DNA of 64,000 nucleotides from a virus, in IMG/VR virus record IMGVR_UViG_3300033146_003955, positions 1 to 64,000 of that record, one strand, 5' to 3'. Position 1 is the stretch's first letter; every line of letters starts with the position of its first letter. Shown here piece by piece: positions 10,903 through 54,118 of the stretch. The notes under the pieces are model-generated. The model had not been told where the DNA came from. It made no database searches and worked only from the letters and a program-made list of their open reading frames with translations. Made by a program: the position numbers and the translations under genes.

Positions 10903-10903
10903 A

Positions 10904-16900: not shown

Positions 16901-19900
16901 GATAAAATTACTGATATAGAGCCAGATCCTACAGCAGAAATAACAGATCCATATACATTTAAAATTATATTAGTAAATGAAGAAACTAAATATGTTGTTG
17001 TATCCCCTATTAATATGTATTCTGATGCAGATTATCAAGTATGGAATACTATATCTTTTACAGCAAATTATGAAAAAACTTTCAATGAAAAATCTACATT
17101 TGATGAAAAAGATAAGTATCAAAATATTATAACATTTTTTCATAATGAAGAATTAGCTGTAGAATCTTTTTTAAAAAATGACTTAAGTTATGATGACCAT
17201 AATACTATACTTGAAGGTTATAATAACGATAATACAAATGCTTGGAATTATAATAATATAAGTAAATTTATAACAATAAGTTCTTCATTTGATAATAAAT
17301 ATATTTTAACTGGTTATTATTCAGAATTAAGAATTGATAATAAATTTATAAATCGTAAAGAGCTTGAAGCTTGGAATAATAAAGTTGTACCGTTTAATGA
17401 TCCAATAACTTATATTGATCAGAACAATCTTGCACGGACATTTGATTCATCTATTATAAATGAACTGTGGACACTCAAAACAAAATTTGATGTTGGTGCT
17501 AAAGGCCACCATTTTAATGAACTTACTAATAAACGATTTACATATGATGAAGGTGAATTAATTTGGGTATTAACTGGACCTACTGAAAATTATCTTAATA
17601 ATGCTGATTTAAATGAATCTATATTTGCGTCAGTAGTAACTGATATACCACCAAATAACGATACAGAAGACCTTTTCCCAATTGTATTTGACCATGAAAT
17701 GATTATAAAAACTTCTGGTAATACTAATTTTGATTCAACTACTGGTATTGTTGTAGACTTTCTAGACGGTGGAACACAATTTTACTCCCATGAAGAATTA
17801 TATGTTTTTTTACAAAATGTATTAAATGATCCAGTAAATGTTGCTTCCAAAATTCAAATTGAACTATTAACCGATAAAAGATTTAGAATATCAACAAATG
17901 ATTATTCAGCGGAATCAATATCTATAGAATTTAAAAACGATGGTGACGCAGAAGAATTTGGTTTTATAACTCCTTTTACAGGTAATCCTCCAGACCCTGA
18001 TGACGATTATATAGTTACACAGGGTATAGGTTATGATGGTGTTGGGGTTTCTACCATTATTACAGGTTTTAAAAATATTAATTCTATAGTTATAACAACA
18101 GGGATTGTTGACACGTTATCTATGGAACATAATGCTTGGTTAGAATATGGAGAACAATATACTAATCTATCCCCGACATCATTAGGTATAAGCAGAATAA
18201 TAACATCTAATAATGATGATACTATTGAAGCCAACGATAATAATGAAGATAAGTATATTACTATTTTAACTCATAGAAAATCTTCATATGAAATATTAAG
18301 CTTATACGATGAGACAAGTATAGAACCTATAGAATATACTTATTCAATATACATGTATAGAAGAAGTAACGAATTTAGCCAAGATGATGTTAAAGTCGTA
18401 ATTATAGGAGATACGTTAATTGAAGGTATCATTGAACCAGATTACCAAGTAGAATATGAATTTGATACTATAGAAAATATATATGGTTACTGGTGGAAAG
18501 CCACAAAAAGAATCAGAATATTATCTGATCAGTCTCCAGACATAGGGATAATAGTTAAAGGTGAATTAAGTTTTTATATAGATGCTTTCCAATTAGAAAA
18601 AGGTACATTTGCTTCTCCTTTTGTTGTAGACAATAACTCAAATCATGGTATGCTTGAATTGGACAAAGCACTTCTTAAACCAGATAGAGGTGTTATATTT
18701 TTTAGATTTAAACCACTTTTTGACTATTATACCACAGAAAAAAAGGTATTGTTAGAAATGCTCTCTTCGGAAGAAGTGAACGGTGTAGATGTTATAGATA
18801 AAACAAAAGGATTTAGAATTTGGTATAAATATAATGAAGAAATACAAAAAGGAACTATACAATTTAGAACTGTAAAAATAGAAGACGACGGAGATTTACC
18901 TGATGATGCTGCCTGGGAAGTTGTTGTATTAGAACAATTTTTCACTAATTGGCATACTATTATATTATCATATGATTTTAATACTAAAAGATTTTTATAC
19001 TTTTTTGATTATTTTAAAAATGCGGTAGATACTGGTGTAAATCAATATGAATTTTTTACAAATTTAAATATTGGTAGTGATATAAGAGGTTACGAAACTA
19101 ATGGTGCTACGATACCTGAATTTTCAGCTTCAGCAGATATTATGGTGAAAGACGTATTAATAACTAACTATACAACATCTGATCAAGAATTAAAAAATTG
19201 GATTAATGCTCATGAATTTTATAAAGAAACGTTATTTAATAATTTACTTGATTCCTACCAACATGATATGCTCGATGTTATCAAAAGCATAGAAAATATT
19301 TCAGTTAATACTTATGACATAGAACAAAATATAAATCTTTTAAATTCTAGAATAACTTCACTAGACAGTATAGTTGATTCTGCTACAGATATTCAACTCT
19401 TAAAAGTTAGGCAAGATGAGTTAAGAGATGAAGTGTTTGGGTCGACATCAAGTATATTAACAAATATAACAGATTTAGATACAGCGAGAGCCGCACATAA
19501 TATTAGAATAAGTACAAATAGTGATAGTATAGCTGCTAATAATATTTTAATAATTGAAAATACAAATCTTATTGCGCAAGAAGTATCTGATAGAATAAAT
19601 TTAATAAATGATCTTATTGTTAAATTAGCATCAACCAATTTAGGTGATGGTGCCTCAACAATTGGTGTACATGATCCAAATAATAAATTTACTTCCACTG
19701 ATGTCGAGGCGGTATTGTTAGAGATAGAGGATCGTGTTTCTACTAATGAAAACGGTATAGCAAACATCAATAATGGTGTATTAGGTCTTCAAACGGAAAT
19801 CAATCAGATGCAGGAAGGTGATGGTTCTACTTATGAGTGGACTGCCGCTAAAGCAATAAATAATGGTTGGAATATTGGTTCTATAAGAACTGATATTAAT

Positions 19901-29545: not shown

Positions 29546-29857
29546 ATGGTTTATATACAAATGGCTAGGCCAATAAGAAATTTTAATATAGTAAGAATTA
29601 AAGAAATACATTTTTTTGATACAAATGAAATAAATATAAAAAAAGCTTTTGGTTTTAAATATCAAATATGTAAAATGGAAAAAGATAAATATATTAAATA
29701 TGAAGAAAAACATGTTTCTATATCTGATAAAAAAATAGTGAATAAAATATTAACGGGTAGTTCAGATTTAGGAGCATACGATTATATATGTCGACAATTA
29801 TTACAATATTTAATAGATGAATCAATAGAGATTGGAACATTAGAGCTTAAAAAATAA
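29546..29857 (+). CDS. Hypothetical protein
   Basis: AGGAG SD. Confidence 0.55.
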   Translation: MVYIQMARPIRNFNIVRIKEIHFFDTNEINIKKAFGFKYQICKMEKDKYIKYEEKHVSISDKKIVNKILTGSSDLGAYDYICRQLLQYLIDESIEIGTLELKK

Positions 29858-29868
29858 GAGGTTTTAAA

Positions 29869-32800
29869 ATGAATAAAAAATTCAAATTGATGTGGGAAAA
29901 TAATCCAGATACACCAATAGACGCGTCTTCGTTATCTAAATTTGTGGATTCGTATTCAGAGAAAGGTGGTATATTATATAATGATATTCCTGAACTTATA
30001 CCCAATGGTACTTATAGTGATGGAAGATTAAAACTTAGAACAAATTCTAAAATAATAATGAAAAGTCCTCAAACACGTGCAATATTTTTTACTCTTAATG
30101 ATTCAGTAGTAAGTCATAATTCTCAATTTGGTTCTATAACTCCAGATAATGTAGTCTTCCTAAAAGATTCACTTGACGAAAGTATGTCTGCGTATATTGG
30201 TGAAGGTACTACGAATATGTTTTCAAATCCTGGATTTGAAAACGGGTTAAATGATTGGATAGTTCCACTTGAACAAGACCAGGGAAATCCTCCTCCAGGT
30301 TATAATGATATAATATGGGGTTCTGAATATGGAGCTAAAGTTGAAGTTATAACTCCTGGTTTTGAATCTAATAATTGTTTATATATGTTTAATGGGGCTT
30401 TTGGAGCGACACAAATTTCTAGAACATTTGATCTGACTGGATACACACGAGTGTCATTATCTTTTTATTACAAGTCAGAAGGAAATTTAAATATTCTTAT
30501 CAAAAGTGGTAGTCTTTACTGGAAAAACGGTATGTGGAATCCAACATCCTCTTATTATTATACTCTTCCATCAACTGAAGGCGAATGGAAAAGATATGAA
30601 ATTAAAAATATAACGACTGCATCTATAGCTGCATTTGCATATATAGTTGAAATGACAATATATTCTGATAATCAATACGCCGAAAATTATATTGATTCAT
30701 TTCAACTTGAAGATCATGATTTTGCTTCTCCATATGTTGATGGTATACGAACAGATGCATTGCTTAAATATACATCTAATATTATTAATATAAATAAAGG
30801 ATTAATAGACATCGCGGTTTTTCCAAAAAATAAAGCAGATTTTACCATCTTTTCTGCCGAAAGTAATTTGCCAGAAAATGCAATAGAGTTAAATTATATT
30901 GAAGCATCAGATGAATTTCGTTTTCGAATATATGATATAGTAGAAGAAGATTACATAGAAATAATATCAGCTGCTCGTCTTAATGAAAGAATAGATAATT
31001 GGATGAGAATTATTTGTTCTTGGAATAAAGATGAAGGGTTAAAAATAATAACAACTTCTGCACCAACTATACAAGCCAAATTAACAACCTTTACTCCAAT
31101 GGAAATAAGTAGAATACAAAATTTTGCTATTGCTTCTAACCGTGAAAACGAAATATTTAATGGATATATTGATGGATTTAAAATAAATGTTACTTCGAAA
31201 AAAGACGTCGATATTTATAAAGATTTTCAAGCTACAACTGTTTCTGTCGATAAAGACATATTTAAAATGTTCGAAGTTAAAGAAGAGGCTATAATAATAG
31301 ATGCATCAATGCTAGACACTGGTGCGGAGTTTCAAATAAATACAGATTATTTTTTATGGATTGTAGATGATTATAACCAAGATACTGGTTCTGTTGTTAT
31401 ATCTACAAGTGAAAATAGCCCAATTGATATATTGCCAGAAGATGCAAGATTGTTTGCAGGTTTCAAAACAGATCAAGCGGCAATGCCAATAATGTCTTCT
31501 CTTTGGGATACAACTACAAAAGAAGATGTTCGTATTAATACTGAAAGATTTATTGTAGCCGGCACAAACACGGACGTATATAATTTTGATATAAGAACAA
31601 TACCATATGCTGAAGAAAATGATATACGTTCTACTATTCCAATACATTTTTCAGATAATCTTTATGGTCGTCATATAACTGATAATGTTACTAATACTGT
31701 TAGTGGTTCACACAATGTTCAATACTTTGAGGTTAACACAGAAGGCTGGTTGGGTTTAGATAATATAAAAATTGATGGTAATACCATATCAACAAGAAAT
31801 TACGTTGAAGGGTCTGGTAACATATATAGTAATGATTTAGAATTAACAGTATATGATATAAACGAGGCGACTAGAGTATGGATACATGCATCTGAAATTG
31901 ATATAGATTCTGGTAATAGTGATATTAAACTTGATTCTCTAAGAATAGATGAAAATATTTTATATTCTAAAGATTTTACAGATTTGTATATAAATGCAAA
32001 TTATGTTGCTACTACTCATAGTAATGATATATATATGATTGCAAGAGATATTCACATTGAGCCTACTAATGATTTGGCGTTTAACGTAAATGCCGATTTT
32101 ATAGTTACTGCTGGAAGACATATAACTTTAACTTCAACTACTGGAATTATTACTCTTGATGATCTTCATATTGACAATCATCATTTATACAATCAAACTG
32201 ATATACACATCTACTCTGAAGACGATAATGTAGATATTGATTCCGGTACTAGTGGAACTATTCAACTTGATGATATAATAATAAAAGATAATTATATATA
32301 TAGAGATACAGGTGATATTCATATTGAAACACCAGACAGCATTTACATTGGTAAAGACGGTGAAGATGCTGACAATGTTTATATAAGATCTGAAAACTTT
32401 ATAGTTGAAAGTAATAACGTTATGTTTACAAATGTTGATTTAGGCGATTTTATAGTATTCGATAATATCAAAATTAGACAAAATGAAGTATATACAACTG
32501 GTGCAACTAGTTTACGGTTACGCTCTGAATCAAATATAGCGTTACAAACAGAAAATATTATCGAGTTCGAAGATTCGGCCGTTGCTCTTTTTATATCTAA
32601 AATAGAATCAACTTTTACTAAAGATTTAAATGTTAAAAATGTTATATTTACGGATACTGAGATCGCAGATACTATTTCACTTTTTACAGCAACAACTGGA
32701 GGAGTATCAACTCTTCATATGAGAACTAATCAGTTGAATGATGAAATTATAATTGAAAATGGTACAGACGGTACGTTAATAATAAATCAAAATGGTTTGA

Positions 32801-34020
32801 CTATAAATGGTAATTTAACAGTAACCGGTACTCAATCAACTGTTAATTCCGTAAATACAGATATTGCAGATTCTACTTTCACGATTAAAACTGCAGCGTC
32901 TCCTATAGACGGAGATGCTTCTTATGAAGTTCAAAGAGCGGTAAATAATGCTAAACTTCTGTGGAATGAAAGTGAAGATTATTGGAAGTTAGATATGGGA
33001 GACGGAATTCAACATAATATTATTTTTGATGGATATAATGAACAATTTGAAGATAATATAAATATAGTGACTTCAGCTCCAGCAGGTTTTAAACTTGAAA
33101 ATGACCATGCAATTGCAGGTATAGAACTTCTTAATCCTGATTTAACAAATACAAATCCTGGGGAAGGTATATTAAATTTAGGTCTTCATATGAATAAAGC
33201 AGAAGGCTTCATACAAAACAAATTAGGTTACGAAGCAGAATCTGTAGGAGCGTGGATATCAATCAATACAAAATTGAGTGAAAGAAGTTTTAAGTGGATG
33301 TGGGAAGACGTTAACTCATCAGTTGAAAAAGAGATGGCATCACTTAAATTAAATAATCAAAGTGTTGCACAAGGATTATCTACTCAATCAGATTTAGGAT
33401 ACTTTAAAACACCGTGGATTAGAACTTCTGCTGTTGAAGTATATGGAGAAGGGGGAGTTGCAAGTACCGGTTTGTTTATGGGTTCAGGTGCAACGACTCC
33501 TCACGGATATGTATTATCTGATGATGAAATTGTGCTATCTGTTAATGGTGAAAATAGTTTTCATATAGTTCCTTCCGGTGACGTGACAATATTACATGAA
33601 TTATATGCCGAAAAAGTACACAACGCAGTTTGGGGTGATATTGCTGAGTGCTGGATTAAATTAAATGGTTATGAATTTGATTATCATCAAGTTGTAGTAC
33701 GAACAGAAAATGGTGTAAGGCCTTCTAATAAAAGAGCAGAAAAAGCAACTATTGGTGTAATTTCAGACACATACGGTTATTTACTGAAGTCGGACGAATT
33801 TAACCCTAAAGATTTTAAGGGTTCTAAATCTGTTCCTATAGCTTTATCTGGTACTGTAAAATGTATTTTAAGTGGTAGAGCAAAAATTGGCGATGAAGTC
33901 GTATCATATAAAAACGGTAAAGTAATTAAAGCCAACTGGTTTGAACATATATTTATGAGAGACAGAATAATAGGTATAATTGATAATCTACAAAACGGTT
34001 GTATAGTAAAGGTAAAGTAA
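29869..34020 (+). CDS. Tail fibre/spike (WENNPDTP family) with CBM/LamG-like domains and C-terminal autocleaving chaperone-like domain
   Basis: NMFSNPGFE module; DNIKIDGNTIS repeats; NAVWGDIAECW...IGVIS...VPIAL.G...GD C-terminus typical of Peptidase_G2/IMC-type domains. Confidence 0.65.
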   Translation: MNKKFKLMWENNPDTPIDASSLSKFVDSYSEKGGILYNDIPELIPNGTYSDGRLKLRTNSKIIMKSPQTRAIFFTLNDSVVSHNSQFGSITPDNVVFLKDSLDESMSAYIGEGTTNMFSNPGFENGLNDWIVPLEQDQGNPPPGYNDIIWGSEYGAKVEVITPGFESNNCLYMFNGAFGATQISRTFDLTGYTRVSLSFYYKSEGNLNILIKSGSLYWKNGMWNPTSSYYYTLPSTEGEWKRYEIKNITTASIAAFAYIVEMTIYSDNQYAENYIDSFQLEDHDFASPYVDGIRTDALLKYTSNIININKGLIDIAVFPKNKADFTIFSAESNLPENAIELNYIEASDEFRFRIYDIVEEDYIEIISAARLNERIDNWMRIICSWNKDEGLKIITTSAPTIQAKLTTFTPMEISRIQNFAIASNRENEIFNGYIDGFKINVTSKKDVDIYKDFQATTVSVDKDIFKMFEVKEEAIIIDASMLDTGAEFQINTDYFLWIVDDYNQDTGSVVISTSENSPIDILPEDARLFAGFKTDQAAMPIMSSLWDTTTKEDVRINTERFIVAGTNTDVYNFDIRTIPYAEENDIRSTIPIHFSDNLYGRHITDNVTNTVSGSHNVQYFEVNTEGWLGLDNIKIDGNTISTRNYVEGSGNIYSNDLELTVYDINEATRVWIHASEIDIDSGNSDIKLDSLRIDENILYSKDFTDLYINANYVATTHSNDIYMIARDIHIEPTNDLAFNVNADFIVTAGRHITLTSTTGIITLDDLHIDNHHLYNQTDIHIYSEDDNVDIDSGTSGTIQLDDIIIKDNYIYRDTGDIHIETPDSIYIGKDGEDADNVYIRSENFIVESNNVMFTNVDLGDFIVFDNIKIRQNEVYTTGATSLRLRSESNIALQTENIIEFEDSAVALFISKIESTFTKDLNVKNVIFTDTEIADTISLFTATTGGVSTLHMRTNQLNDEIIIENGTDGTLIINQNGLTINGNLTVTGTQSTVNSVNTDIADSTFTIKTAASPIDGDASYEVQRAVNNAKLLWNESEDYWKLDMGDGIQHNIIFDGYNEQFEDNINIVTSAPAGFKLENDHAIAGIELLNPDLTNTNPGEGILNLGLHMNKAEGFIQNKLGYEAESVGAWISINTKLSERSFKWMWEDVNSSVEKEMASLKLNNQSVAQGLSTQSDLGYFKTPWIRTSAVEVYGEGGVASTGLFMGSGATTPHGYVLSDDEIVLSVNGENSFHIVPSGDVTILHELYAEKVHNAVWGDIAECWIKLNGYEFDYHQVVVRTENGVRPSNKRAEKATIGVISDTYGYLLKSDEFNPKDFKGSKSVPIALSGTVKCILSGRAKIGDEVVSYKNGKVIKANWFEHIFMRDRIIGIIDNLQNGCIVKVK

Positions 34021-35258: not shown

Positions 35259-35831
35259 ATGGCTTTTGATAAAAGAATAACGGAATCATTTAATAATATG
35301 AAAAATAGAATATATAAAAGTGGAAATTTTCACGATAAATATAATTTTGATGAACTTGTAACAATTTTAAATAATGAAAACCTTAGTAAAGATGAGTTAG
35401 AAATTCTTAAACTTTTTAAAAAGTATATAAGTAATATAAAAGATATAGTTGAAGATATTGGTACTAAAATATGTGATTTACAAAAATTAGATTTTTATAA
35501 TAAAATTCGTGTTGAGGAGTTTATTAGAGAAATTATTTTGCTAATAGACGGGTTCATAGACGCTTTAAATGCAATTGGAGATGTAATTGAGTTCGAAGAT
35601 AACCGTATAAATATGATAACATCTCTTGCTAGATTAAAATCATTAAGACAAAGTTTAATACAGAAAATGGTTGAATACAATAGAATAACTGCTGGGATAA
35701 ATTTTTCTAATGATCAATCGAACATGATACAAGTTCTAATTGTAGATATTATTGACTCTATAATTATAGAAACTTTTAAATTAAGAATATTAAAACTTTA
35801 CGAAATATTAAGCAAGAAGGTTGTTGAGTGA
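35259..35831 (+). CDS. Helical hypothetical protein
   Basis: AGGAGG SD. Confidence 0.6.
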   Translation: MAFDKRITESFNNMKNRIYKSGNFHDKYNFDELVTILNNENLSKDELEILKLFKKYISNIKDIVEDIGTKICDLQKLDFYNKIRVEEFIREIILLIDGFIDALNAIGDVIEFEDNRINMITSLARLKSLRQSLIQKMVEYNRITAGINFSNDQSNMIQVLIVDIIDSIIIETFKLRILKLYEILSKKVVE

Positions 35832-38800
35832 TAAAAAATATTGTTATAACGAAACAGGGCGATGAGGCTGAAAATTCAAATAATACTCTATTTATGTCTC
35901 CATCTTCTTGGATTGAAGGCGGTGCTAATCTCATCCTTTTTAAAAATGACAAAATACTCATTAACGGTACAGATTATTCAGTTAACGATTTTCAAAATAT
36001 TGAATTAGCAGCAAGTGCCAAGGCAGCAGATAATATAAAGTTTGTGATTACCCAGTTGGATGATCCTTCGGAACTTTTATCTTATGATGATAGAGTACAG
36101 CAATTAGACAGATTAAATAAAAAAACAGCAGGAAAAGCTCAAACATCAATAGAAAAAAGAGTAACTGAAGAAACAATACCATCTAAATTTATAATTCACT
36201 CTGATGATGTTTGGACTACTACTATTTCTTCAGATATTTCTACTGCTCTTCAAGAACAAGCAATAAATTTCCATACCAAATTATTCTTAAAAGAAGACAC
36301 AACAGTAGCTAATCAAAAAGGGTGGTATGCTACAACAGATAATACACTTGAAGGTAGAATAACAAATTGGGTTCCTGGAGATTTTGGTAAATCTTATATT
36401 GTAAGACTATATGACTTTAATGACAATGAAATACCATCATCAGATGGTATGAATTGGTACTGGGATTATCAATCTGGTTATTTAACAATACAAAATGATT
36501 TTGATTTCCCAACACCATTTAAGATAACAGGTGCTTCTTATAATGGTCGTTTTGGTATAGGTTCACTTAAAAATTGGAAAGAACCAGTTTTTTCAATTGC
36601 GGATCTTCCTCTTTACCACAATGATGATGGCGATGTCCGTCTTATTTTAACTGAAAACAAATTATATAGGTTTGATAGTCTTCTACCAGGATGGGAACCT
36701 CTTTCCTATGGTTCTCAAGCGTTTAAAGACCCCGTATTAAGTAATATGGATCTTCCGGATGTAAATAATATGCGTGGCGATATACGTCTTGTTATGGAGG
36801 AATCTAATCTTTACGTTTTTGACGATGCTATGGGTTTAAACGGTGGATGGGTTTTGTTAACTGGTCATGGTTTTAATCCATCTAACTTCTATGATAAAGA
36901 GCAAACAGATGCTCTTCTCAATTTAAAATCTAATACAGGTCACACTCATGATACTATTTACTTAAGAGATGAGGAAGTTAAAAATTTAGTTAGATGGAGA
37001 CCATCGAGAGCTGATTTTAATGATTTACCTCCTTATACAGAAAATAGAGATGGTGATGTAATTCTTACGCGAGATGATAATACTATTTATAGATGGTATG
37101 ATGATAATCCTAATCTGTCCCAAGGCCATTGGGAAGCTATTTTCCAATCTAATTTTTCTTGGAAAACACCAGTTACCATGGCTATAGATTTACCTACTGT
37201 AGGTAACGCGCCTGGTGAATGCAGATTGGTGACTGAAGAGCAGAAAATATATTTTTGGGACGGAGTAAACTGGTACGCAATAGTAGCTGATGCGGCACCA
37301 CACTATCATGATGATAGATATTTACTTAAAACGTCTCTCAACTGGAAACAACCTGTTAACAGTGAAGGGGATTTACCATCAATAAATAATAATGATGGTG
37401 ATATTCGCCTTACACTTGATACATCTATAATCTATAGATGGCATAACGCAACTTCTGAGTGGTTACAGGTAATAGCAGACATATCATGGCTTCCTCCAAT
37501 TACAACATTCGCTCAACTTCCATTAACAGCTAAAGATAATGATGTGGTATACATTAAAGAATATAATAAACTTTATGTATATGATGTTGACACATGGAAA
37601 CAAATAGAATCTGTAGGTTCAGGTCATGATCATGATGATTTATATTATTCAAAATCTGAAATAGATAATATTATAAATGTTATAACAGTTGATTTTGACA
37701 ATCATACACATGATGGTATAAACACACAAAAAATTAATTACAATAATCTCCTTAATATACCGACTTTCTATTGGAAAAATCCAGTAGTATTTGAATCTGA
37801 ACTTCCTATTGTTGATAATGAGATAGGAGATGCAAGAATAGTTGTTGATGCAAAATCCATATATGTGTGGGACGGTAATCAGTGGCAACTTGTATCTAAT
37901 GGTACTATTGTTGCAGAACATGACCACGATGACAGATACTATACCGAAGCAGAAGTAACTGCTCTAATTGATGCAGCTACTACAAATATCTTAATTCAAT
38001 TAAATGATAAATCTGATGTAACACATACACATGATGATAGGTATTATACTGAACTTGAAATGGATATTGCTCTTGCAGATAAAGCTGATAGAATACATTC
38101 TCACCCCTATGCTTCAGATACGCATCTTCACGATGATAGGTATTACAAAAAAATAGATTTACAAACAGCAGGTGGTGGAACAGTTCATTGGGACAATATA
38201 ACTAATAAACCTCTTTCGATAACTGATTCATGGCAAACACCAGTTCAATCAGAATCAAATCTTCCACTTATAAATAATAACACTGGTGATTTACGTCTTG
38301 TATTAGATACTTCTGACGTATGGAGATATGACGGTTCAGACTGGATTATTGTAGGACATTGGGCCGGTCCTTCTATTGATCATTGGGAAGCTCCAGTAGA
38401 ATTGGCATCTGAATTACCTTATGGCGGCAATTCAGATGGAGATATTCGTCTTGTAATGGATGAAGGTACTTTATATAGATGGGTACTTTTAACTTCAACA
38501 TGGGAACCTATGATTGGTGGTACAGCAGAATGTGATTGTCCTCCTCCAGGTAATGATGATGGTACTGGAATTGGTACCATGGAGATTCAAGTTTACATAA
38601 ATGGTTTACAAGGTTTCGAAGATGAAGATTGGGAACGTCCCACTTCAACATCTATACGAATATTAGCTGATGTTGGCCCATTAGATATAATATCAATATT
38701 AGTTATAGGTGACGAGGTAACAAGATATAATTTTAGAGGTGAGGCTGAAGGCCAAATTGAAATTAACCTCTCTACAACTTTTTATAGACAAGAATTAGAA

Positions 38801-40897
38801 CTTTCAGTTCAAACTTCTTTATTTACTATTCCAAACCCCTATCATCCAGGTCAAAAAGATTTAATTCTTTGGGTTAACGGTGTATTACAGAGAGTTGGTG
38901 AAGATTATACTGAATTATCATCTACACAATTTCTTTTCACACGAATGTTAGATATAGGCGACCGTATTTTAATTATAATTTTAGGTTCAACTAGTGGAAG
39001 TGAAAGTTATAGCAGAGAAGATTACGTAGTTAGCGAACTTAATCAAACAATGAGTATGATAAATGAATATGCTATGGGTACCCAACAGCTCTTGGTTTAT
39101 TACAACGGTCAGCTTCAGCTTGAAGGTGATGATTATACCGAACTTGATACGACAACTATAAGATTTGAAAATAGATTGTTGGAACTTGATGATTTTGTAA
39201 CATTTATTATTCTTAAAGGTTTAGCGGTTGGCGGTACTGGCGGCAGTATTATTAATTACGCATCTGACTTATTACTTGGTTGGCCAACAGATAATTCATG
39301 GTCTGATGGCTATGTAGAACTAGTTCCTACCATGAATGTCGCTGATGCCATCGACGAATTAAATGAAGCTGTTTTAGAATTAATACCATCAGAATTAATA
39401 TCATTAGAAGATATAAATCTTGAATCTGAAGGAATAGATTTAGTATCTGGTTTTGTTGCAGATGGTAATGCATATATTGAAGGACAACCTGGAGACTATT
39501 TCAATTATTTAACTAAAAATAGAGAATTCTATCTTTTGACACCTTTTGATAATTCTTTTGCTAAAGCTGATCAAGGTACACTTCGTCTTTTTGTTAATGG
39601 AATTGAAGTTGATAATTTTAGTCTAGAAGACGCATTTGTGGATAGTGATAGAAATGGGAATCAAACAGCTGCACATTATGGTCAAGTAAATGCTGGCGCT
39701 AACGCCAATGTTGGTGTTGCAGGTACTGGAGGTGCTATAAGAAATTCATCCAATGGTTTTATTCAAATAATGTCTATAAATAAATATAATTATAAAAAAA
39801 TACAAAAAGGATTTGTTAGATTTAAATTTTTTAATGGTCTTCTTCGACATGGATATAATTATATTTATGTTATTCATCAATATGGGAGTGTTGTTAACAC
39901 CACTAAACAATTTAAATTTTTTATGGATACTCAGCATGCATTTCCCGAATTTTCTGGGACTCAAACTTTTTTTCCTCAAAATATACAATCAAATAAATTT
40001 ACTTCTGGCGTTAAATATTATTCTATTGGAGACTCATTTAAAACTACATTAAGTTTTATCAATATGAGCTATACTGTATATTCAGCGGAGCCATTAATGT
40101 TAGATATGCCAGGACTAAAACCTACGCATATAGAATATAATGATTCACGTCTTTTAGGAGTAAGTAATCCACCACATAGAAACGACGGTAATGTAGAATA
40201 TCGTGGTGTATTTGTTTTGAACGAATTTAATGAATATTCTATTGATGCAACATTAACAGTAAAAACTAATACGCCATTTGGCCCAGGAAATGAATATGTA
40301 TTTATTACTAAAAATCGTTTAGTAAACACATATACTAACGGTTCATCTAATTTGGTTGAATTTTTTAGAGATGAAATTTTTCGTCTCTATGAAGGGGAAT
40401 ACGATACCGTTCCTGTACAACGAAATCATATTTGGAATTCTGTTCTCCCATTAGAAGAAAATCAAGCTCTTTTATTTGATAGAGGCTTGAGATATGCTAA
40501 TATGAGTTTTATAGATTATATGCCAGCACAAACTGTAGATTATTCTAACTTTACAGGACCACAAACTTATTACCGCGCATTTTACAAAATGCAACCGAAA
40601 AATAATGGTTATTTTATTATAGATGGAATCATTAAAAATGATTTGTTAGATAATAAGATAATAATAGATATTAAGCTTCCAACACAAACTGGTTGGCTTT
40701 CTTTAAATACATATTATGAAGTATCTAGTTTTAATGGCGAAGATGGTGATGGATGTTTAATTGATATTGTTGACAATAAATTTTATTATTCATCAGGAAT
40801 CTTTTCTACAGTTTATAGTGGTTTTTTGTTGATATTTAAAGTTACACTTCCAGATGAAACAGCACCGACTATGACGTATTTAGAATTAAGATGGTAA
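35828..40897 (+). CDS. 1689-aa virion fibre-like protein with nine ~45-aa W-x-x-P-V...LP...GD.R...Y.W...W repeats and HxHDDRYY repeats
   Basis: Repeats counted from the translation; also V(Y/W)xNGxLQ..G.DY.E beta modules. Confidence 0.7.
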   Translation: MIKNIVITKQGDEAENSNNTLFMSPSSWIEGGANLILFKNDKILINGTDYSVNDFQNIELAASAKAADNIKFVITQLDDPSELLSYDDRVQQLDRLNKKTAGKAQTSIEKRVTEETIPSKFIIHSDDVWTTTISSDISTALQEQAINFHTKLFLKEDTTVANQKGWYATTDNTLEGRITNWVPGDFGKSYIVRLYDFNDNEIPSSDGMNWYWDYQSGYLTIQNDFDFPTPFKITGASYNGRFGIGSLKNWKEPVFSIADLPLYHNDDGDVRLILTENKLYRFDSLLPGWEPLSYGSQAFKDPVLSNMDLPDVNNMRGDIRLVMEESNLYVFDDAMGLNGGWVLLTGHGFNPSNFYDKEQTDALLNLKSNTGHTHDTIYLRDEEVKNLVRWRPSRADFNDLPPYTENRDGDVILTRDDNTIYRWYDDNPNLSQGHWEAIFQSNFSWKTPVTMAIDLPTVGNAPGECRLVTEEQKIYFWDGVNWYAIVADAAPHYHDDRYLLKTSLNWKQPVNSEGDLPSINNNDGDIRLTLDTSIIYRWHNATSEWLQVIADISWLPPITTFAQLPLTAKDNDVVYIKEYNKLYVYDVDTWKQIESVGSGHDHDDLYYSKSEIDNIINVITVDFDNHTHDGINTQKINYNNLLNIPTFYWKNPVVFESELPIVDNEIGDARIVVDAKSIYVWDGNQWQLVSNGTIVAEHDHDDRYYTEAEVTALIDAATTNILIQLNDKSDVTHTHDDRYYTELEMDIALADKADRIHSHPYASDTHLHDDRYYKKIDLQTAGGGTVHWDNITNKPLSITDSWQTPVQSESNLPLINNNTGDLRLVLDTSDVWRYDGSDWIIVGHWAGPSIDHWEAPVELASELPYGGNSDGDIRLVMDEGTLYRWVLLTSTWEPMIGGTAECDCPPPGNDDGTGIGTMEIQVYINGLQGFEDEDWERPTSTSIRILADVGPLDIISILVIGDEVTRYNFRGEAEGQIEINLSTTFYRQELELSVQTSLFTIPNPYHPGQKDLILWVNGVLQRVGEDYTELSSTQFLFTRMLDIGDRILIIILGSTSGSESYSREDYVVSELNQTMSMINEYAMGTQQLLVYYNGQLQLEGDDYTELDTTTIRFENRLLELDDFVTFIILKGLAVGGTGGSIINYASDLLLGWPTDNSWSDGYVELVPTMNVADAIDELNEAVLELIPSELISLEDINLESEGIDLVSGFVADGNAYIEGQPGDYFNYLTKNREFYLLTPFDNSFAKADQGTLRLFVNGIEVDNFSLEDAFVDSDRNGNQTAAHYGQVNAGANANVGVAGTGGAIRNSSNGFIQIMSINKYNYKKIQKGFVRFKFFNGLLRHGYNYIYVIHQYGSVVNTTKQFKFFMDTQHAFPEFSGTQTFFPQNIQSNKFTSGVKYYSIGDSFKTTLSFINMSYTVYSAEPLMLDMPGLKPTHIEYNDSRLLGVSNPPHRNDGNVEYRGVFVLNEFNEYSIDATLTVKTNTPFGPGNEYVFITKNRLVNTYTNGSSNLVEFFRDEIFRLYEGEYDTVPVQRNHIWNSVLPLEENQALLFDRGLRYANMSFIDYMPAQTVDYSNFTGPQTYYRAFYKMQPKNNGYFIIDGIIKNDLLDNKIIIDIKLPTQTGWLSLNTYYEVSSFNGEDGDGCLIDIVDNKFYYSSGIFSTVYSGFLLIFKVTLPDETAPTMTYLELRW

Positions 40898-43084: not shown

Positions 43085-43088
43085 TAAA

Positions 43089-50550: not shown

Positions 50551-52806
50551 GTGAGTCAGTGGAAATGGAAACAAAAATTATCTGAAGAAATATTTCATGA
50601 TAAATATATGATTAATGATGAAAAAAGTGAACAAGATGTATTTAGCGGAGTTGCTAAAGAAGTTGCTTCGGCCGAAAAAACAAAACAAAAAGTAAATGAG
50701 TGGCAACAAAAATTTTATGATGAAATTTCTACAGGAAGATTAATACCAGCAGGAAGGATTTTAGCTAATGCTAGACCAAATACCAAAATGCCATATTATA
50801 ACAATTGCTATACTATAGATATAGAAGATACTATAGAAGGTATAGGGCAATCACAACAAGAAGATTTAATAATTTCTGCTACCGGTGGAGGAGTAGGAAT
50901 TAATTTTTCTAAATTAAGACCTAAAGGTGCTTCACTATCTAAAGGTGGTAAAAGTTCTGGTGTTATATCTTTTATGAAGGGTTTCAATCAATATGCTAAG
51001 GTCATTGAAACTGGGGGATCGCGAAGAGCCGCTCATATTGGTATATTAAATATTGATCATCCAGAAATTGAAGATTTTATAGTCGCCAAGCAGGGTGATA
51101 TAAATAAAGCTTTAACACAATTCAATATTAGTGTTGGAATTACGGATGAATTCATTAATTGCGTGAAAGGTGACAAAGATTGGGATTTGAAATTTAATGG
51201 TAAAGTTTATAAAACAGTCAAAGCAAAAGATTTATATGAATTAATGACCAAAAATGCATTTGAACATAATGAACCTGGAATTCTAAATTTAGATATTATT
51301 AATAAATATAATAATGGTTATTATGATTTTAATATAGAATCTGTTAACCCATGTGGTGAAATTGTTATGCCTCCATATAGTCTATGTTGCTTATCATCTG
51401 TAAATTTAACAAAATTTATTTCTAATCCATTTACAGACCAGGCAAAATTTGACTTCGATTTATATAAAGAGACGATTAATATTGGTATAAGATTTTTAGA
51501 TAATGTATTAGATGTAACCAAATACCCGTTAGAGAAAATTGAAACTTTATCAAAGAAATGGAGAAGAGTAGGGCTAGGATTCACAGGCTTAGGCAATGTA
51601 TTTACTATGTTGAAAATTAAATATGGAAGTGAAGAATCTAAAAAATTATCACATTTATTGGGAAAAACTTTAAGAGATTATTCTTATAAGGCTTCAATTG
51701 AGTTAGCTAAAGAAAAAGGTATGTTTGATAAATGTGATACCAATAAAATAGTAAAATCAAATTTTATTAAACAATTACCTAAAGATATCGTTAAAGATAT
51801 TAAAAAATATGGATTAAGAAACATAGCATTAAACACAACCGCTCCAACAGGTGCAACATCATTATCGTTAGGAAATAATTGTTCTAGTGGAATAGAACCA
51901 ACATTTTCACTATATTACGATCGTTCTATTAGGACAGGAGTTGGAGATGAAATTAAAACAGAAAAAGTATATGATTACGCATGGTTACAATATTTAGAAT
52001 ATATGAAAAAAAATAATTTTGCTATTTCTGATACACCAGATTATTTTGTTACGACATTTGATGTAAATGAATATGATGCAATAGATATACAGGCGATATT
52101 TCAAAAATATATAGATCATAGTATAAGTAAAACATTAAACTTACCGACAGATATAACATATGAAAATTATAATAAATTATTTATGTATGCATACGATAGC
52201 GAATTAAAGGGTTTTACTACATTTAACAGTTCAGGCAGTGTACGCGGTATATTAAACACAGAAGAAAAAAAAGAATATATTAAAAGAACTGAAGCTCCTA
52301 CAAGACCAGATGAACTTGAATGTGATATTCATGAAATTACAGTACAAGGCAAAAAATTTATCATCCTTGTAGGTAAATTATATGGATCACTTTATGAAAT
52401 ATTTCTCGACTCAAATGATGATGGTACAATTGATGTTAATAATCACAAGACAGGTACTATTAAGAAAAACGGTAAAGGAAAGTATTCTTTAATAATTAAA
52501 AACGGAGTTGATAGAGTAGTTGTAGAAAACCTAGCCACATCTTTTGACGCAACATATGGAGTTTTAGCTCGTTTCATCTCTATGGGTTTAAGGCATGGTA
52601 CTCCTCTTCAATTTATAGTAGATCAATTAAATAGATCAAAACATTTCTTGGGATTTGAAAGAGCCGTAAGTAGAGTATTAAAGAAATATATTAAAGATGG
52701 TGAAATTGTTGAAACAAATGAAATATGCCCGGAATGCGGTAACAAAGAATTAAGATATCAAGAGGGATGTTTAGCATGCACATGTGGATGGAGTAAATGT
52801 TCGTAA
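50551..52806 (+). CDS. nrdJ: Class II (adenosylcobalamin-dependent) ribonucleotide reductase
   Basis: PAGRIL, NNCY, GGGVG, NPCGE, CCLSS, APTG, SGIEP, SISKT; no ATP cone; C-terminal CPECG...CTC Zn ribbon; no beta subunit adjacent. Confidence 0.9.
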   Translation: MSQWKWKQKLSEEIFHDKYMINDEKSEQDVFSGVAKEVASAEKTKQKVNEWQQKFYDEISTGRLIPAGRILANARPNTKMPYYNNCYTIDIEDTIEGIGQSQQEDLIISATGGGVGINFSKLRPKGASLSKGGKSSGVISFMKGFNQYAKVIETGGSRRAAHIGILNIDHPEIEDFIVAKQGDINKALTQFNISVGITDEFINCVKGDKDWDLKFNGKVYKTVKAKDLYELMTKNAFEHNEPGILNLDIINKYNNGYYDFNIESVNPCGEIVMPPYSLCCLSSVNLTKFISNPFTDQAKFDFDLYKETINIGIRFLDNVLDVTKYPLEKIETLSKKWRRVGLGFTGLGNVFTMLKIKYGSEESKKLSHLLGKTLRDYSYKASIELAKEKGMFDKCDTNKIVKSNFIKQLPKDIVKDIKKYGLRNIALNTTAPTGATSLSLGNNCSSGIEPTFSLYYDRSIRTGVGDEIKTEKVYDYAWLQYLEYMKKNNFAISDTPDYFVTTFDVNEYDAIDIQAIFQKYIDHSISKTLNLPTDITYENYNKLFMYAYDSELKGFTTFNSSGSVRGILNTEEKKEYIKRTEAPTRPDELECDIHEITVQGKKFIILVGKLYGSLYEIFLDSNDDGTIDVNNHKTGTIKKNGKGKYSLIIKNGVDRVVVENLATSFDATYGVLARFISMGLRHGTPLQFIVDQLNRSKHFLGFERAVSRVLKKYIKDGEIVETNEICPECGNKELRYQEGCLACTCGWSKCS

Positions 52807-52842: not shown

Positions 52843-53010
52843 TGTTTTACATAAAGACAATTATATAGAATTTAAGGTTTAATAAAACGGAATACTATAA
52901 AATCAAATGATTGGTTAAGTATGAAGTCATGATTAAGATAATAAATAATTAAAACAACTTTTATAAATACGGTAATTCTTAATACTTTAAAGCATAATTA
53001 ATTATATAGT

Positions 53011-53084
53011 AAGGAGGACAATAATGTTGTAGATTAATTCATTATGAACTTATAATTTAATACAAATAAATTAAATTATAGGAG
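53011..53084 (+). promoter_or_regulatory. Leader: AAGGAGG + ATG-TTG-TAG mini-ORF and hairpin overlapping the next SD
   Basis: Directly visible; see findings. Confidence 0.55.
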
Positions 53085-53093
53085 ACTATAAAA

Positions 53094-53468
53094 ATGGTAA
53101 AAATAAGTATTAAAGCAATGGCAACATTATTACGAGAAAAGAAAGAAGAACGCAAAGCAACTCAACGAGCATATTCAAAAATATATTTTAATGGCGAATT
53201 TAATTCAAAAACTTGGCTCAAACAACCTGAGAAATATCTTCAAATTAAACCAATCTTAAATAAAATGGTAGATACTCAATACCAACCTCAAACTATGAAG
53301 GAAGATTTCCGTACTCAGCACATTGTTGATTCAATGTGTAAGGGTAGAAGCATCTCCCAGATTGAGTCTAAGACTCGAGGTACTGAAGATTATAGAATAA
53401 TAAGAGAGAGGTGTTGTAGAGATGCTGTCTCCATCTTAGAAGATATGGGAAAAGAGTGGATTGATTAA
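53094..53468 (+). CDS. Basic hypothetical phage protein
   Basis: AGGAG SD; FR..HI..S..KGR...QIE motif. Confidence 0.7.
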   Translation: MVKISIKAMATLLREKKEERKATQRAYSKIYFNGEFNSKTWLKQPEKYLQIKPILNKMVDTQYQPQTMKEDFRTQHIVDSMCKGRSISQIESKTRGTEDYRIIRERCCRDAVSILEDMGKEWID

Positions 53469-53502
53469 GCATATTTAAAAGTACTTAAAGGTACCTTTTT
53501 AT

Positions 53503-53574
53503 GTCCTATTCGTCTAGTGGTAAGGCACTGGTCTCTAAAACCAGTCAACAACAGTTCGATTCTGTTATGGGACA
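53503..53574 (+). tRNA. Amber suppressor tRNA, anticodon CUA
   Basis: Full cloverleaf: acceptor GTCCTAT/ATGGGAC, D stem GTCT/AGGC, anticodon stem CTGGT/ACCAG with loop CT-CTA-AA (53535-53537), T arm AACAG-TTCGATT-CTGTT; CCA not encoded. Confidence 0.85.
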
Positions 53575-53580
53575 CTACAT

Positions 53581-53741
53581 GGGGATTAGTATATAAGCTA
53601 GTACAGTCGTTAATCGAGTGTAACAGTATCTGGAAACCACTGCAGGGGCGGTACAGAAAAGCTATACACAGTATAGGAGTTGCAACTCTTGTACTTAAAG
53701 TGATTAAAGAAAGGAGAGAGGTTCATAGCCTCTTGTCCCCC
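53581..53741 (+). ncRNA. tRNA-like RNA with a large insertion replacing the anticodon loop
   Basis: GGGGAT/GTCCCC acceptor, GTAT/GTAC D stem, AGAGG-TTCATAG-CCTCT T arm, internal helices. Confidence 0.5.
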
Positions 53742-53764
53742 TTATTTTATAAAAGGAAAATATA

Positions 53765-54118
53765 ATGAGACAGATTAAAAGAGTACCGGAAAATGGCTTT
53801 ATTTATATAATTGCAAAACGTGATAAACATGATGTTTTAAGAGTTCATAGTACGGAAGGTTTATATGCACGACATAACAGTTTCGGTGAAAAAGAGGGAC
53901 TAGTTTATTTATATAATAAAAAAGAATTACTTAAAATTAAAACGAAGAAGGACGATTTTGTTATTAAGATAACATCTAAAGCTATAAAACAAATGTATGA
54001 AATAACACGTAAGAAAAGTTGGGATATATATTCTTATTATATTAAAGATAGAGTTGATCCTCTTTATAGGACGGCATTAAAATATGGAAATGGTAAACAT
54101 TCAAAGCATGTTGCATAA
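53765..54118 (+). CDS. Hypothetical protein
   Basis: AAGGA SD. Confidence 0.6.
   Translation: MRQIKRVPENGFIYIIAKRDKHDVLRVHSTEGLYARHNSFGEKEGLVYLYNKKELLKIKTKKDDFVIKITSKAIKQMYEITRKKSWDIYSYYIKDRVDPLYRTALKYGNGKHSKHVA

What the first reader, a model, noticed from the sequence alone, without database searches (positions are those of the whole stretch)
52992..53574. Candidate amber-readthrough switch: Met-Leu-UAG leader and SD-occluding hairpin upstream of a suppressor tRNA
Seen: after a GCATAATT element (52992) a perfect SD AAGGAGG (53011) precedes ATG TTG TAG (53024-53032). The same frame next meets TGA (53045) and then TAA (53072). A hairpin CTTATAATTTAA/TTAAATTATAGG (53049-53082) overlaps the AGGAG SD of the 124-aa gene at 53094, which is followed by tRNA(CUA). 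Inference: a ribosome ending at UAG leaves the hairpin intact, while one that reads through to UGA would cover its 5' arm and free the SD. Gene 53094 would then report amber suppression or RF1 shortage, analogous in logic to prfB autoregulation by RF2 but using translational attenuation.
Basis: partly seen in the sequence, partly recalled or inferred. Interest (0 to 1): 0.8.

Follow-up and report, generated by a model that had tools for sequence, protein, structure and literature searches.

The report
Stop-codon-readthrough sensor beside phage suppressor tRNA
A large phage that uses the normal genetic code has a tiny leader gene with an early UAG stop, and the next gene's ribosome-binding site probably opens only when the phage's own UAG-reading tRNA reads through that stop; dozens of distant phages keep this design and I found no published description of it.

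Summary

- **Family.** The 124-aa gene (53094-53468) belongs to a small helical protein family with no Pfam match or informative fold match.
- **Leader conservation.** In all 17 evaluable lineages (down to about 25% identity) the gene follows the same leader. It reads SD, ATG, 1-3 codons, UAG, 4-8 sense codons (29 in one lineage), then UAA or UGA. In 15 of the 17, that second stop sits at the 5' foot of a hairpin that pairs with the gene's SD and often its AUG.
- **tRNA linkage.** A tRNA(CUA) lies on the same strand in every locus.
- **Arrest motif.** Thirteen lineages end the readthrough peptide in Pro-Pro-stop, one has RGPP one codon before the stop, and one has an internal PP. One of the thirteen ends in RAPP. 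The Pro codons vary synonymously, so the frame beyond UAG is translated.
- **Blind scan.** A pattern scan of viral contigs found 48 in-frame leaders. Thirty had a tRNA(CUA) nearby, against none of 5 out-of-frame matches.
- **Second target.** The gene at 53765 has CAG at codon 3 here, but UAG in three relatives.

The window's copy (M-L-UAG-I-N-S-L-UGA) lacks the Pro-Pro motif. No experiment exists, and I found no paper on this design. This scan had already noted the design on other DNA, in at least 29 genomes.

The parts
52990..53009 (+). Promoter-like motif AAGCATAATTAATTATATAG.
   Evidence: The same motif (AGCATAWTTAAWTATATA-like) recurs about 20-30 nt before SD sequences of many genes in this genome, for example at 43087, 56043, 83099, 114922 and 155154(-). 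It also precedes the leader in L006, L007, L012, L015, L017 and L024. Promoter function is inferred, not shown.
53011..53017 (+). SD1 (AAGGAGG) of the leader mini-ORF
   Evidence: It lies 6 nt before ATG 53024. An SD is present before the leader ATG in all 17 lineages.
53024..53032 (+). Leader mini-ORF ATG TTG TAG (Met-Leu-amber)
   Evidence: The first stop is TAG in 17/17 lineages, while codon 2 varies (TTG, CTG, TCA, ACC, AAG-AAA, AAG-AAA-TTG). TAG is followed by A in 14 of 16 leaders.
53033..53047 (+). Readthrough extension ATT AAT TCA TTA TGA (Ile-Asn-Ser-Leu-stop)
   Evidence: The TGA is kept in relative L001 despite three adjacent substitutions. In relatives this segment ends in Pro-Pro-TAA/TGA. 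The window's copy lacks Pro-Pro.
53044..53055 (+). Overlapping ATGA start/stop and the 3-codon ORF ATG AAC TTA TAA, which ends inside the hairpin's 5' arm. A role is possible but inferred.
   Evidence: L001 has GTGA ATC TTA TAA at the same place, so start potential and stop are both kept. This is inference only, and the feature is absent from other lineages.
53049..53061 (+). 5' arm of the SD-occluding hairpin. It begins 2 nt after the UGA.
   Evidence: The A53060-to-G change in L001 keeps a G-U pair.
53070..53082 (+). 3' arm of the hairpin. It covers AGG of SD2.
   Evidence: dG -9.6 kcal/mol, z -3.9.
53080..53084 (+). SD2 (AGGAG) of the 124-aa gene
   Evidence: It lies 9 nt before ATG 53094. 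Modelled unpaired probability is 0.26 free, 0.26 with a ribosome at UAG and 0.54 with a ribosome at UGA. For AUG2 the values are 0.11, 0.12 and 0.78.
53094..53468 (+). Regulated gene: a 124-aa helical protein of an unnamed family with the conserved motif FR-x-KHIV-x-S-x-x-RGR-x-I-x-QIE
   Evidence: no Pfam or PHROG hit; family of at least 32 members; AF2 pLDDT 88; a helical hairpin plus two helices; no informative match.
53469..53499 (+). Second GCATA motif directly after the stop codon, then a short hairpin just before the tRNA
   Evidence: TAAGCATA follows the gene's stop in the window, L006, L007, L008 and L015. A hairpin of differing sequence precedes the tRNA in each. Its role (promoter, processing or terminator) was not tested.
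53503..53575 (+). Amber suppressor tRNA(CUA). No CCA is encoded.
   Evidence: It is 100% identical in L001. A tRNA(CUA) is on the same strand in every family locus.
53581..53745 (+). Conserved structured RNA with tRNA-like ends: acceptor-like GGGGAUU/UGUCCCC and a T-arm-like AGAGG-UUCAUAG-CCUCU
   Evidence: dG -49.7, z -2.75; 93% identical in L001; conserved core and covarying pairs in L015 and L017. There is no Rfam family. It is part of the module, and its function is unknown.
53765..54118 (+). 117-aa gene. Codon 3 is CAG here (53771-53773) but TAG in relatives.
   Evidence: The homologues begin M-R-amber (L001/L002), M-K-amber (L012-14) and M-T-amber (L017/19), with no alternative start.

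Best explanation
This is a translational attenuator whose input is UAG readthrough.

**Proposed mechanism (inferred, not shown)**
- Transcription probably starts just upstream of SD1, at a phage promoter-like motif.
- Ribosomes load on the strong SD1 and translate Met-Leu.
- If RF1 wins at UAG (53030), a dipeptide is released 17 nt before the hairpin. The hairpin stays closed, and SD2 and AUG2 of the 124-aa gene stay masked.
- If the phage's tRNA(CUA) decodes the UAG, the ribosome runs four more codons to UGA (53045). Its leading edge then melts the 5' arm (53049-53061), frees SD2 and AUG2, and the 124-aa protein is made.
- In most relatives the readthrough peptide ends in Pro-Pro-stop, in two cases RAPP or RGPP. 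That should hold the ribosome at the hairpin foot, as in ermC- or secM-type attenuation.
- The window's copy has lost Pro-Pro. It may rely on plain termination, plus possible re-initiation at the overlapping AUGA into a 3-codon ORF that ends inside the 5' arm.

**Shown here:** the anatomy, its conservation, its linkage to the tRNA, and amino-acid-level selection beyond the UAG.

**Still inferred:** the switch itself, the amino acid inserted (one CAG/TAG exchange suggests Gln), and the protein's role. The protein would be a helper or regulator made only when suppression is on.
For: 1. Sequence elements and the hairpin are verified.
2. All 17 evaluable lineages of the gene family keep SD-ATG-(1-3 codons)-TAG, followed by 4-8 codons (29 in L036) and then TAA or TGA. 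These include 10 clusters below 50% identity and 7 more from viral contigs.
3. The first stop is TAG in 17/17 and the second stop is never TAG. Genome-wide stop usage for ORFs of at least 70 codons is 56% TAA, 29% TGA and 15% TAG.
4. Thirteen lineages end the readthrough peptide in Pro-Pro-stop, L030 has RGPP one codon before the stop, and L036 has an internal PP. The Pro-Pro is always in frame with ATG1, and the Pro codons vary synonymously.
5. In 15/17 lineages the MFE pairs SD2 and/or AUG2 with a 5' arm starting -4 to +5 nt from the second stop. Across the 15 lineages with a short leader the stems differ in sequence yet are far more stable than shuffles (mean z -2.95, Stouffer -11.4).
6. 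In the ribosome-masking model, SD2 unpaired probability is 0.17 free, 0.17 at UAG and 0.64 at stop 2.
7. A tRNA(CUA) is on the same strand in all loci.
8. A blind pattern scan gave 48 of 53 matches in frame. Thirty of the 48 have a tRNA(CUA), against 0 of 5 out-of-frame matches. At least 15 of 30 downstream ORFs are in the same protein family and start 47-66 nt after stop 2.
9. Real suppression is implied by the second family. The gene 53765 homologues have TAG at codon 3 in three lineages, have no alternative start, and keep conserved N-termini. The window has CAG there.
10. Background from papers: RAPP/RGPP arrest (PMC10951233, PMC12992588); slower termination after poly-Pro and the effect of the base 3' of UAG on RF1 (PMC6412442).
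Against:
- The window's own leader lacks the Pro-Pro arrest motif. Its hairpin is AU-rich and modest (-9.6 kcal/mol) and covers only 3 of 5 SD2 bases. The model predicts only partial opening, from 0.26 to 0.54.
- Two lineages deviate. In L030 the MFE hairpin does not pair SD2. L036 has a 31-codon leader ending 22 nt before AUG2, which implies coupling rather than a hairpin.
- The only close relative is about 88% identical, so window-specific conservation rests on about 13 substitutions.
- The host, the tRNA's aminoacylation identity and the protein's function are all unknown.
- 15% of this phage's own genes end in TAG, so strong suppression would carry a cost.
Confidence: 0.72

Rival explanations
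1. Timer rather than sensor. Once the tRNA(CUA) is expressed, the UAG is read efficiently. The leader is then an ordinary short upstream ORF that delays the 124-aa gene until the tRNA accumulates, with no graded read-out or feedback.
For: The same anatomy supports this reading. The tRNA gene lies in the same module, with promoter-like motifs before both the leader and the tRNA. The relatives' UAG at codon 3 of a second gene looks like simple gating.
Against: The sequence cannot separate this from the main model. The phage still ends 15% of its genes in TAG, which argues that suppression is partial and its level matters.
Confidence: 0.12
2. The leader reports host RF1 activity rather than the phage tRNA. 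For example, RF1 could be inactivated by the phage or depleted. Near-cognate host tRNAs would then provide the readthrough.
For: The readthrough rate depends on competition between RF1 and tRNA, as reviewed in PMC6412442.
Against: A tRNA(CUA) is linked to the leader in every family locus and in 30 of 48 blind hits. That linkage points to the tRNA as the relevant partner. No RF-related gene was seen in the module.
Confidence: 0.08
3. The UAG acts only as a normal stop. The Met-Leu mini-ORF would be a decoy or stand-by ribosome site, or a protein-binding RNA motif, and the hairpin an ordinary 5'-UTR structure unrelated to readthrough.
For: Two-codon ORFs and AU-rich hairpins are easy to find in a 31% GC genome. 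The window's copy has no arrest motif.
Against: Codon 2 and the flanks vary while TAG is invariant. Pro-Pro is conserved in frame beyond the UAG with synonymous codon changes. The second stop is fixed at the hairpin foot. The background frequency of the pattern is about 1 in 171. Forty-eight of 53 blind matches are in frame.
Confidence: 0.05
4. The phage is a code-15 (TAG = Gln) phage, and the leader is simply an eight-codon gene.
For: It carries a suppressor tRNA, and there is one CAG/TAG exchange with a relative.
Against: Coding density is already high under the standard code and gains little with TAG read as sense. Thirty-two ORFs of at least 70 codons end in TAG, with the next gene's SD and start following normally. 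No convincing in-frame TAG was found in long genes.
Confidence: 0.03

Closest known systems
ermC/ermB-type leader-peptide translational attenuation (ErmCL)
   Same: A short SD-led leader ORF precedes the gene. A hairpin sequesters the SD of the downstream gene. A ribosome held at a defined leader codon melts the 5' arm and exposes the SD (mechanism as summarised in PMC5118997).
   Different: There the input is a macrolide bound in the exit tunnel. Here it is whether an early UAG is decoded or terminated. There is no antibiotic and no resistance gene, and the leader is much shorter (7-12 codons in all).
RAPP/RGPP-type ribosome arrest peptides (ApdA, ApdP, ApcA; SecM with RAGP)
   Same: Relatives of this leader end in x-(K/R)-P-P-stop. 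L024 has RAPP and L030 has RGPP. Stalling at Pro-Pro near the C-terminus of a small upstream ORF regulates the downstream gene (PMC7897499, PMC10951233, PMC12992588).
   Different: Known examples monitor protein export or insertion and sit before sec/yidC genes. Here the arrest motif is reachable only through a UAG. The peptides are far shorter than the characterised ones. The window's copy (INSL) has no such motif.
prfB (RF2) autoregulation
   Same: The logic is the same: an early in-frame stop codon reports the efficiency of termination at that codon and sets expression accordingly.
   Different: prfB uses a +1 frameshift inside the regulated gene, and the regulated product is the release factor itself. 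Here there is no frameshift, the stop is in a separate leader, the output is SD unmasking, and the partner is a suppressor tRNA. This comparison comes from general knowledge and was not tested here.
Engineered UAG-in-leader switches for unnatural amino acids
   Same: A TAG placed in a leader peptide makes downstream expression depend on an amber suppressor tRNA (reviewed in PMC6412442, section 6 and Figure 8).
   Different: Those switches are synthetic and act on transcription through the tna/trp leaders. This one is natural, phage-borne and acts on translation.
Stop-codon recoding and 'code change modules' in phages (Borges et al., preprint 10.1101/2021.08.26.457843)
   Same: A phage-encoded suppressor tRNA is proposed to gate expression of genes that carry in-frame stops.
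   Different: That work concerns genome-wide recoding of late and lysis genes. It does not mention a leader or attenuator: the word 'leader' occurs 0 times in its text. This phage keeps the standard code.

Membership tests
Leader-peptide translational attenuation (ermC-like class) | A short upstream ORF with its own SD | tested here: met
   AAGGAGG-N6-ATG at 53011-53026. It is present in 17/17 lineages.
Leader-peptide translational attenuation (ermC-like class) | A hairpin that sequesters the SD and/or start codon of the downstream gene | tested here: met
   In the window the stem at 53049-61 / 70-82 covers AGG of SD2. This holds in 15/17 lineages, with mean z -2.95 against shuffles.
Leader-peptide translational attenuation (ermC-like class) | The ribosome pause site is placed so that the paused ribosome disrupts the hairpin | tested here: met
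   The second stop lies -4 to +5 nt from the 5' arm. The masking model gives SD2 unpaired probability 0.17 rising to 0.64. This is a computation only.
Leader-peptide translational attenuation (ermC-like class) | Signal-dependent induction of the downstream gene | not testable with these tools
   This needs reporter or toeprint assays.
RAPP/RGPP arrest peptides | An R-(A/G)-P-P motif at the arrest site | tested here: not met
   The window's peptide is M-L-(amber)-I-N-S-L. The motif is met in relatives L024 (RAPP) and L030 (RGPP), and most others have K/R-P-P or x-P-P.
RAPP/RGPP arrest peptides | Located upstream of protein-localisation genes (sec/yidC) | tested here: not met
   The downstream gene is an unnamed 124-aa helical protein with no Pfam hit.
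prfB-type autoregulation | An in-frame stop inside the regulated gene, bypassed by a +1 frameshift with an internal SD | tested here: not met
   The stop is in a separate leader. The regulated ORF (53094-53468) is intact, lies in a different frame from the leader (70 nt between the two ATGs), and starts 61 nt downstream of the leader's TAG.
Code-15 (TAG = Gln) recoded phage | Many in-frame TAG codons in long (structural or lysis) genes, and TAG rarely used as a stop | tested here: not met
   Thirty-two ORFs end in TAG, and no convincing in-frame TAG was found.
Transcription attenuators (trp/his leader type) | A terminator hairpin followed by a U-run, plus an alternative antiterminator | tested here: not met
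   There is no U-run after the stem, and the 3' arm carries the SD. Rfam found nothing here.

The most novel reading that the evidence does not exclude
Standard-code phages carry a self-contained 'amber module'. It comprises a suppressor tRNA, a leader that measures whether UAG is being read through, a helper or regulator protein made only when it is, further genes gated by UAG at codon 3, and a tRNA-like RNA. This would be a natural sensor of the cell's decoding state. It would give 'orphan' phage suppressor tRNAs their first defined targets. It could also be the regulatory stepping stone from the standard code to full stop-codon recoding.
Probability: 0.55. Interest if true: 0.9.

Novelty: new variant of a known kind. 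Interest (0 to 1): 0.85.

Why it matters
- **An open question becomes testable.** Many phages that use the standard code carry suppressor tRNAs with no known target. One genome announcement, for example, states that possible target genes were not identified (PMC9022506). This design supplies a defined, conserved target and a testable circuit.
- **A new input for a known mechanism.** It would be the first natural attenuator whose input is nonsense suppression, something so far only engineered (PMC6412442).
- **A wider role for Pro-Pro arrest motifs.** It extends them from monitoring protein export to monitoring decoding.
- **A lead on code evolution.** It suggests how early in-frame stop codons can become regulatory before a phage changes its genetic code.
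- **Practical use.** The element is a compact, portable part for reporting amber suppression, and a marker for finding phage genes that manage suppression. The 124-aa family is the first candidate.

Tried and rejected
- **Sigma-70 promoter inside the leader.** TTGTAG (53027), an 18-nt spacer and TATAAT (53051) could be read as a promoter. I rejected this because the -10 element is absent in L006, L007 and L008, while ATG-YTG-TAG is kept.
- **Code-15 recoding.** Rejected.
- **Other amber leaders in this genome.** The only other regex hit (minus strand, gene start 124792) lies out of frame inside an upstream coding region, so it is chance. The in-frame TAG at 129117 (minus strand, 178 + 290 codons) was left unresolved.
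- **Close relatives.** None were found in the phage collection or in viral contigs using the single protein. The metagenome scan gave only duplicates. The genome-contig scan failed because the alignment had no conserved stretch.
- **Known RNA families.** Rfam has nothing for the leader or for the RNA after the tRNA.
- **tmRNA reading of 53581-53745.** ARAGORN finds no tmRNA. With introns allowed and a relaxed score it calls a 'tRNA-Leu(UAA) with an 84-nt intron', which has a weak anticodon stem and which I doubt. A tag-like reading frame starting at GCA was considered. However, the two substitutions against L001 in that stretch keep an RNA helix rather than a peptide.
- **Protein function.** Pfam, PHROGs, Foldseek against the PDB, VIA-align wide and the ESM Atlas gave nothing informative. 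There were only generic helical-hairpin matches, and insignificant rows for RF2 domain 1 and the seryl-tRNA synthetase arm.
- **Hairpin alignment.** A MAFFT alignment of the hairpins was not structurally coherent, so covariation was assessed by per-lineage folds and shuffles instead.
- **Pth2.** No Pth2 gene is present in this genome.
Full report
**Context.** The window is the first 64 kb of a single 158,812-bp phage record. It is 31% GC and CheckV estimates it at about 80% complete. Genes are densely packed under the standard code, and reading TAG as sense adds almost nothing. Of the ORFs of at least 70 codons on the coding strands, 32 end in TAG (15%), 62 in TGA and 122 in TAA. The next gene's SD and start follow normally after the TAG stops. 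The only tRNA in the genome is tRNA(CUA) at 53503-53575. It encodes no CCA. The finding lies in the 250-bp spacer after a ribonucleotide reductase gene (50551-52806) and its terminator.

**Observation.**
- RNAfold gives a 13-bp stem (53049-53061 / 53070-53082) with an 8-nt loop, at -9.6 kcal/mol.
- The stem's z-score is -3.9 against dinucleotide shuffles of the 5' part, and -2.5 for the whole leader.
- The stem covers AGG of the AGGAG SD.
- The GCATAATT element is the core of a longer motif (AGCATAWTTAAWTATATA-like). This motif recurs about 20-30 nt before the SDs of many genes in this genome and before the leader in relatives. It is most simply read as a phage promoter, which would place the leader at the 5' end of its transcript. 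That reading is inferred.

**Closest relative.** Two short metagenomic contigs (L001, L002) are about 88% identical across a block that starts at the leader and ends after the gene at 53765. The flanks drop to 65-68% identity. Thirteen differences fall in the leader.
- None disrupts SD1, ATG TTG TAG, the TGA, SD2 or the 3' arm.
- The one change in the 5' arm (A53060 to G) keeps a G-U pair.
- The TGA survives three adjacent substitutions.

In these relatives the gene after the tRNA begins ATG AGA TAG, where the window has ATG AGA CAG. There is no alternative start for 58 codons, and the N-terminus is conserved.

**The decisive test: distant homologues.** A full HMMER search found ten clusters at 30-47% identity. 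A profile search brought the family to 32 aligned members. I fetched the DNA for nine clusters and seven further lineages from viral contigs.
- All 17 evaluable lineages have an SD, ATG, 1-3 sense codons, TAG, then 4-8 sense codons (29 in L036) and TAA or TGA. One contig (L029) is cut 38 nt upstream of the gene and could not be evaluated.
- The first stop is always TAG and the second never is.
- Codon 2 and the surrounding sequence vary.
- The readthrough peptides are INSL, INSS, IFINGP, IAKPP, TLPP, ILKPP, IRKPP, ITNRPP, ISRAPP, IRPPP, ARDRGPPV, MLKPP, IADKPP, VYNKPP, IAKKPP and one long form with an internal SPP.
- Pro-Pro is always in frame with the leader ATG, and its codons vary synonymously: CCA CCA, CCA CCC, CCG CCC, CCT CCC, CCG CCT, CCT CCG and CCA CCT. 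That is the signature of selection on a translated peptide. Ribosomes therefore do pass the UAG.
- The base after UAG is A in 14 of 16 leaders. The 3' base is reported to affect RF1 recognition (PMC6412442).

**Hairpin.** In 15 of 17 lineages the MFE structure pairs SD2, and often AUG2, with a 5' arm that begins -4 to +5 nt from the second stop. The stems differ in sequence between lineages, for example CTTCTCCTAT/ATAGGAGAAG in L024 and CTCTTGTGATT/AATCACAGGAG in L027. Across the 15 short-leader lineages they are nevertheless much more stable than shuffles, with mean z -2.95 and Stouffer -11.4.

I also forced the bases under a ribosome (-15 to +12 of the P site) to be unpaired and recomputed pairing.

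| State | SD2 core unpaired, mean of 15 lineages | Window SD2 | Window AUG2 |
|---|---|---|---|
| Free RNA | 0.17 | 0.26 | 0.11 |
| Ribosome at UAG | 0.17 | 0.26 | 0.12 |
| Ribosome at second stop | 0.64 | 0.54 | 0.78 |

Two lineages are exceptions. In L030 the hairpin abuts the SD but does not cover it. In L036 the long leader ends 22 nt before AUG2, which suggests direct coupling instead of a hairpin.

**Linkage to the tRNA and specificity.**
- A tRNA(CUA) lies on the same strand in every family locus, with 0-3 genes in between. Its body sequence differs between lineages.
- Among 185 SD-led ORF starts in this genome and the loci, the SD-ATG-(1-4 codons)-TAG pattern within 135 nt upstream occurs only before family genes, apart from one chance case inside a coding region.
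- A blind scan of viral contigs used the pattern GGAG-N4-9-ATG-NNN-TAGAT-N4-13-CCNCCN-TRA and returned 53 loci. In 48 the Pro-Pro-stop is in frame.
- Thirty of those 48 carry a tRNA(CUA) on the same strand in the fetched stretch, against 0 of the 5 out-of-frame matches.
- The downstream ORF starts 47-66 nt after the second stop in all but one of the 30 loci where one was detected, and at least 15 of 30 belong to the same protein family.

**A second amber target.** Homologues of the 117-aa gene at 53765 begin M-R-amber (L001/L002), M-K-amber (L012-14) and M-T-amber (L017/19), and gene callers had truncated or missed them. The window has Gln (CAG) at that codon. A UAG at codon 3 is therefore a recurring gate in this module. 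It is cheap when it fails, because only a dipeptide is released. The CAG/TAG exchange hints that the tRNA inserts Gln, but this is a single event.

**Mechanism.**
- RF1 termination at UAG leaves the hairpin closed.
- Decoding by tRNA(CUA) carries the ribosome to the hairpin foot, where Pro-Pro-stop (RAPP or RGPP in two lineages) should hold it. SD2 and AUG2 are then exposed.
- Stalling at RAPP/RGPP and its resistance to EF-P are documented (PMC10951233, PMC12992588). Slow termination after poly-Pro is noted in PMC6412442.
- The unmasking logic is that of erm leaders (PMC5118997).

The window and L001 lack Pro-Pro, and L006 keeps a single Pro. In this sub-lineage the second stop overlaps a start codon (ATGA here, GTGA in L001). 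That start opens a three-codon ORF ending at TAA 53053, inside the 5' arm. It could carry the ribosome further into the stem, but this is my inference only.

**The regulated protein.** It has no Pfam or PHROG family. With the family alignment AlphaFold gives a confident model (pLDDT 88): a long helical hairpin followed by two helices. Fold searches return only generic helical matches. The most conserved segment, FR-x-KHIV-x-S-x-x-RGR-x-I-x-QIE, is basic. Its role is open: it could help suppression, regulate it, or be a regulator of later genes.

**Novelty.** I found no description in five full-text searches or in the main paper on phage recoding, which does not mention a leader. The class of mechanism is known, namely leader-peptide translational attenuation and arrest peptides. 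The input, nonsense suppression by a phage tRNA, is known only from engineered switches (PMC6412442). Earlier notes of this scan describe the same design in at least 29 other genomes, often with RGPP leaders and Pth2-like genes. I used them only as leads. They supplied the RAPP/RGPP naming, which I then checked in my own loci and in the papers. This genome has no Pth2, although locus L024 does.

**Verdict.** The mechanism is still untested experimentally. The window's copy is a Pro-Pro-less variant of a widespread and apparently undescribed phage control element.

Noticed in passing
window 53581-53745: A conserved, GC-richer structured RNA lies directly after the tRNA(CUA). It has tRNA-like ends: an acceptor-like helix GGGGAUU/UGUCCCC, a T-arm-like AGAGG-UUCAUAG-CCUCU, and no CCA. 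About 130 nt lie between them. Its core (..UUCGAG..CAGUA.CUGGAAACCA.UGCAG.GG.GG..) and its ends are conserved, with covarying pairs, in L015 and L017 and partly in L007. It matches no Rfam family and ARAGORN does not call it a tmRNA. There is no G3-U70 pair.
   Followed up: partly
window 53765-54118; L001:867-1220, L012:5477-5827, L017:5164-5478: A 117-aa gene family of unknown function carries UAG at codon 3 in three lineages, where the window has CAG. Gene callers truncated or missed these genes in the relatives.
   Followed up: yes
window 52990, 43087, 46095, 56043; genome 73416, 83099, 114922, 116781(-), 138898(-), 155154(-): A recurrent motif, AGCATAWTTAAWTATATA-like, lies about 20-30 nt upstream of SD sequences. 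It is probably a phage-specific promoter. Its core GCATA also follows the stop codon of the 124-aa gene, just before the tRNA, in several lineages.
   Followed up: partly
window 53477-53499, and the equivalent positions in L006, L007, L008, L015, L017, L024 and L029: A hairpin of differing sequence lies 2-6 nt before the 5' end of the tRNA(CUA) in several lineages, for example GTCCATAAAG/CTTTATGGAC in L007 and GAGGGCGGC/GCTGCCCTC in L024. It could be a processing signal, a leaky terminator or a stabiliser.
   Followed up: no
L012-L019, L024, L027 (the hairpin loops of their leaders): The loop of the SD-occluding hairpin carries a conserved (A)UUCCCACC in several otherwise divergent lineages. 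The window's loop (UACAAAUA) lacks it. I could not identify a pairing partner or binding factor.
   Followed up: no
window 52903-52991: The spacer upstream of the leader aligns at 68% identity with the 3' end of an 80-aa ORF that is intact in relative L002 (68-310). That ORF ends in TAG at the position of the window's GCATAATT. The window seems to hold a decayed remnant of that gene.
   Followed up: partly
genome 128242-129651, minus strand (outside the window): Two ORFs of 178 and 290 codons lie in the same frame, separated only by a TAG at 129117. No SD-led start was detected after the TAG. This could be a genuine in-frame amber or two adjacent genes.
   Followed up: partly
window 10892-21406, 29851-34020, 35828-40897: There are very long ORFs of 3504, 1389 and 1689 codons on the + strand. 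I did not examine them.
   Followed up: no
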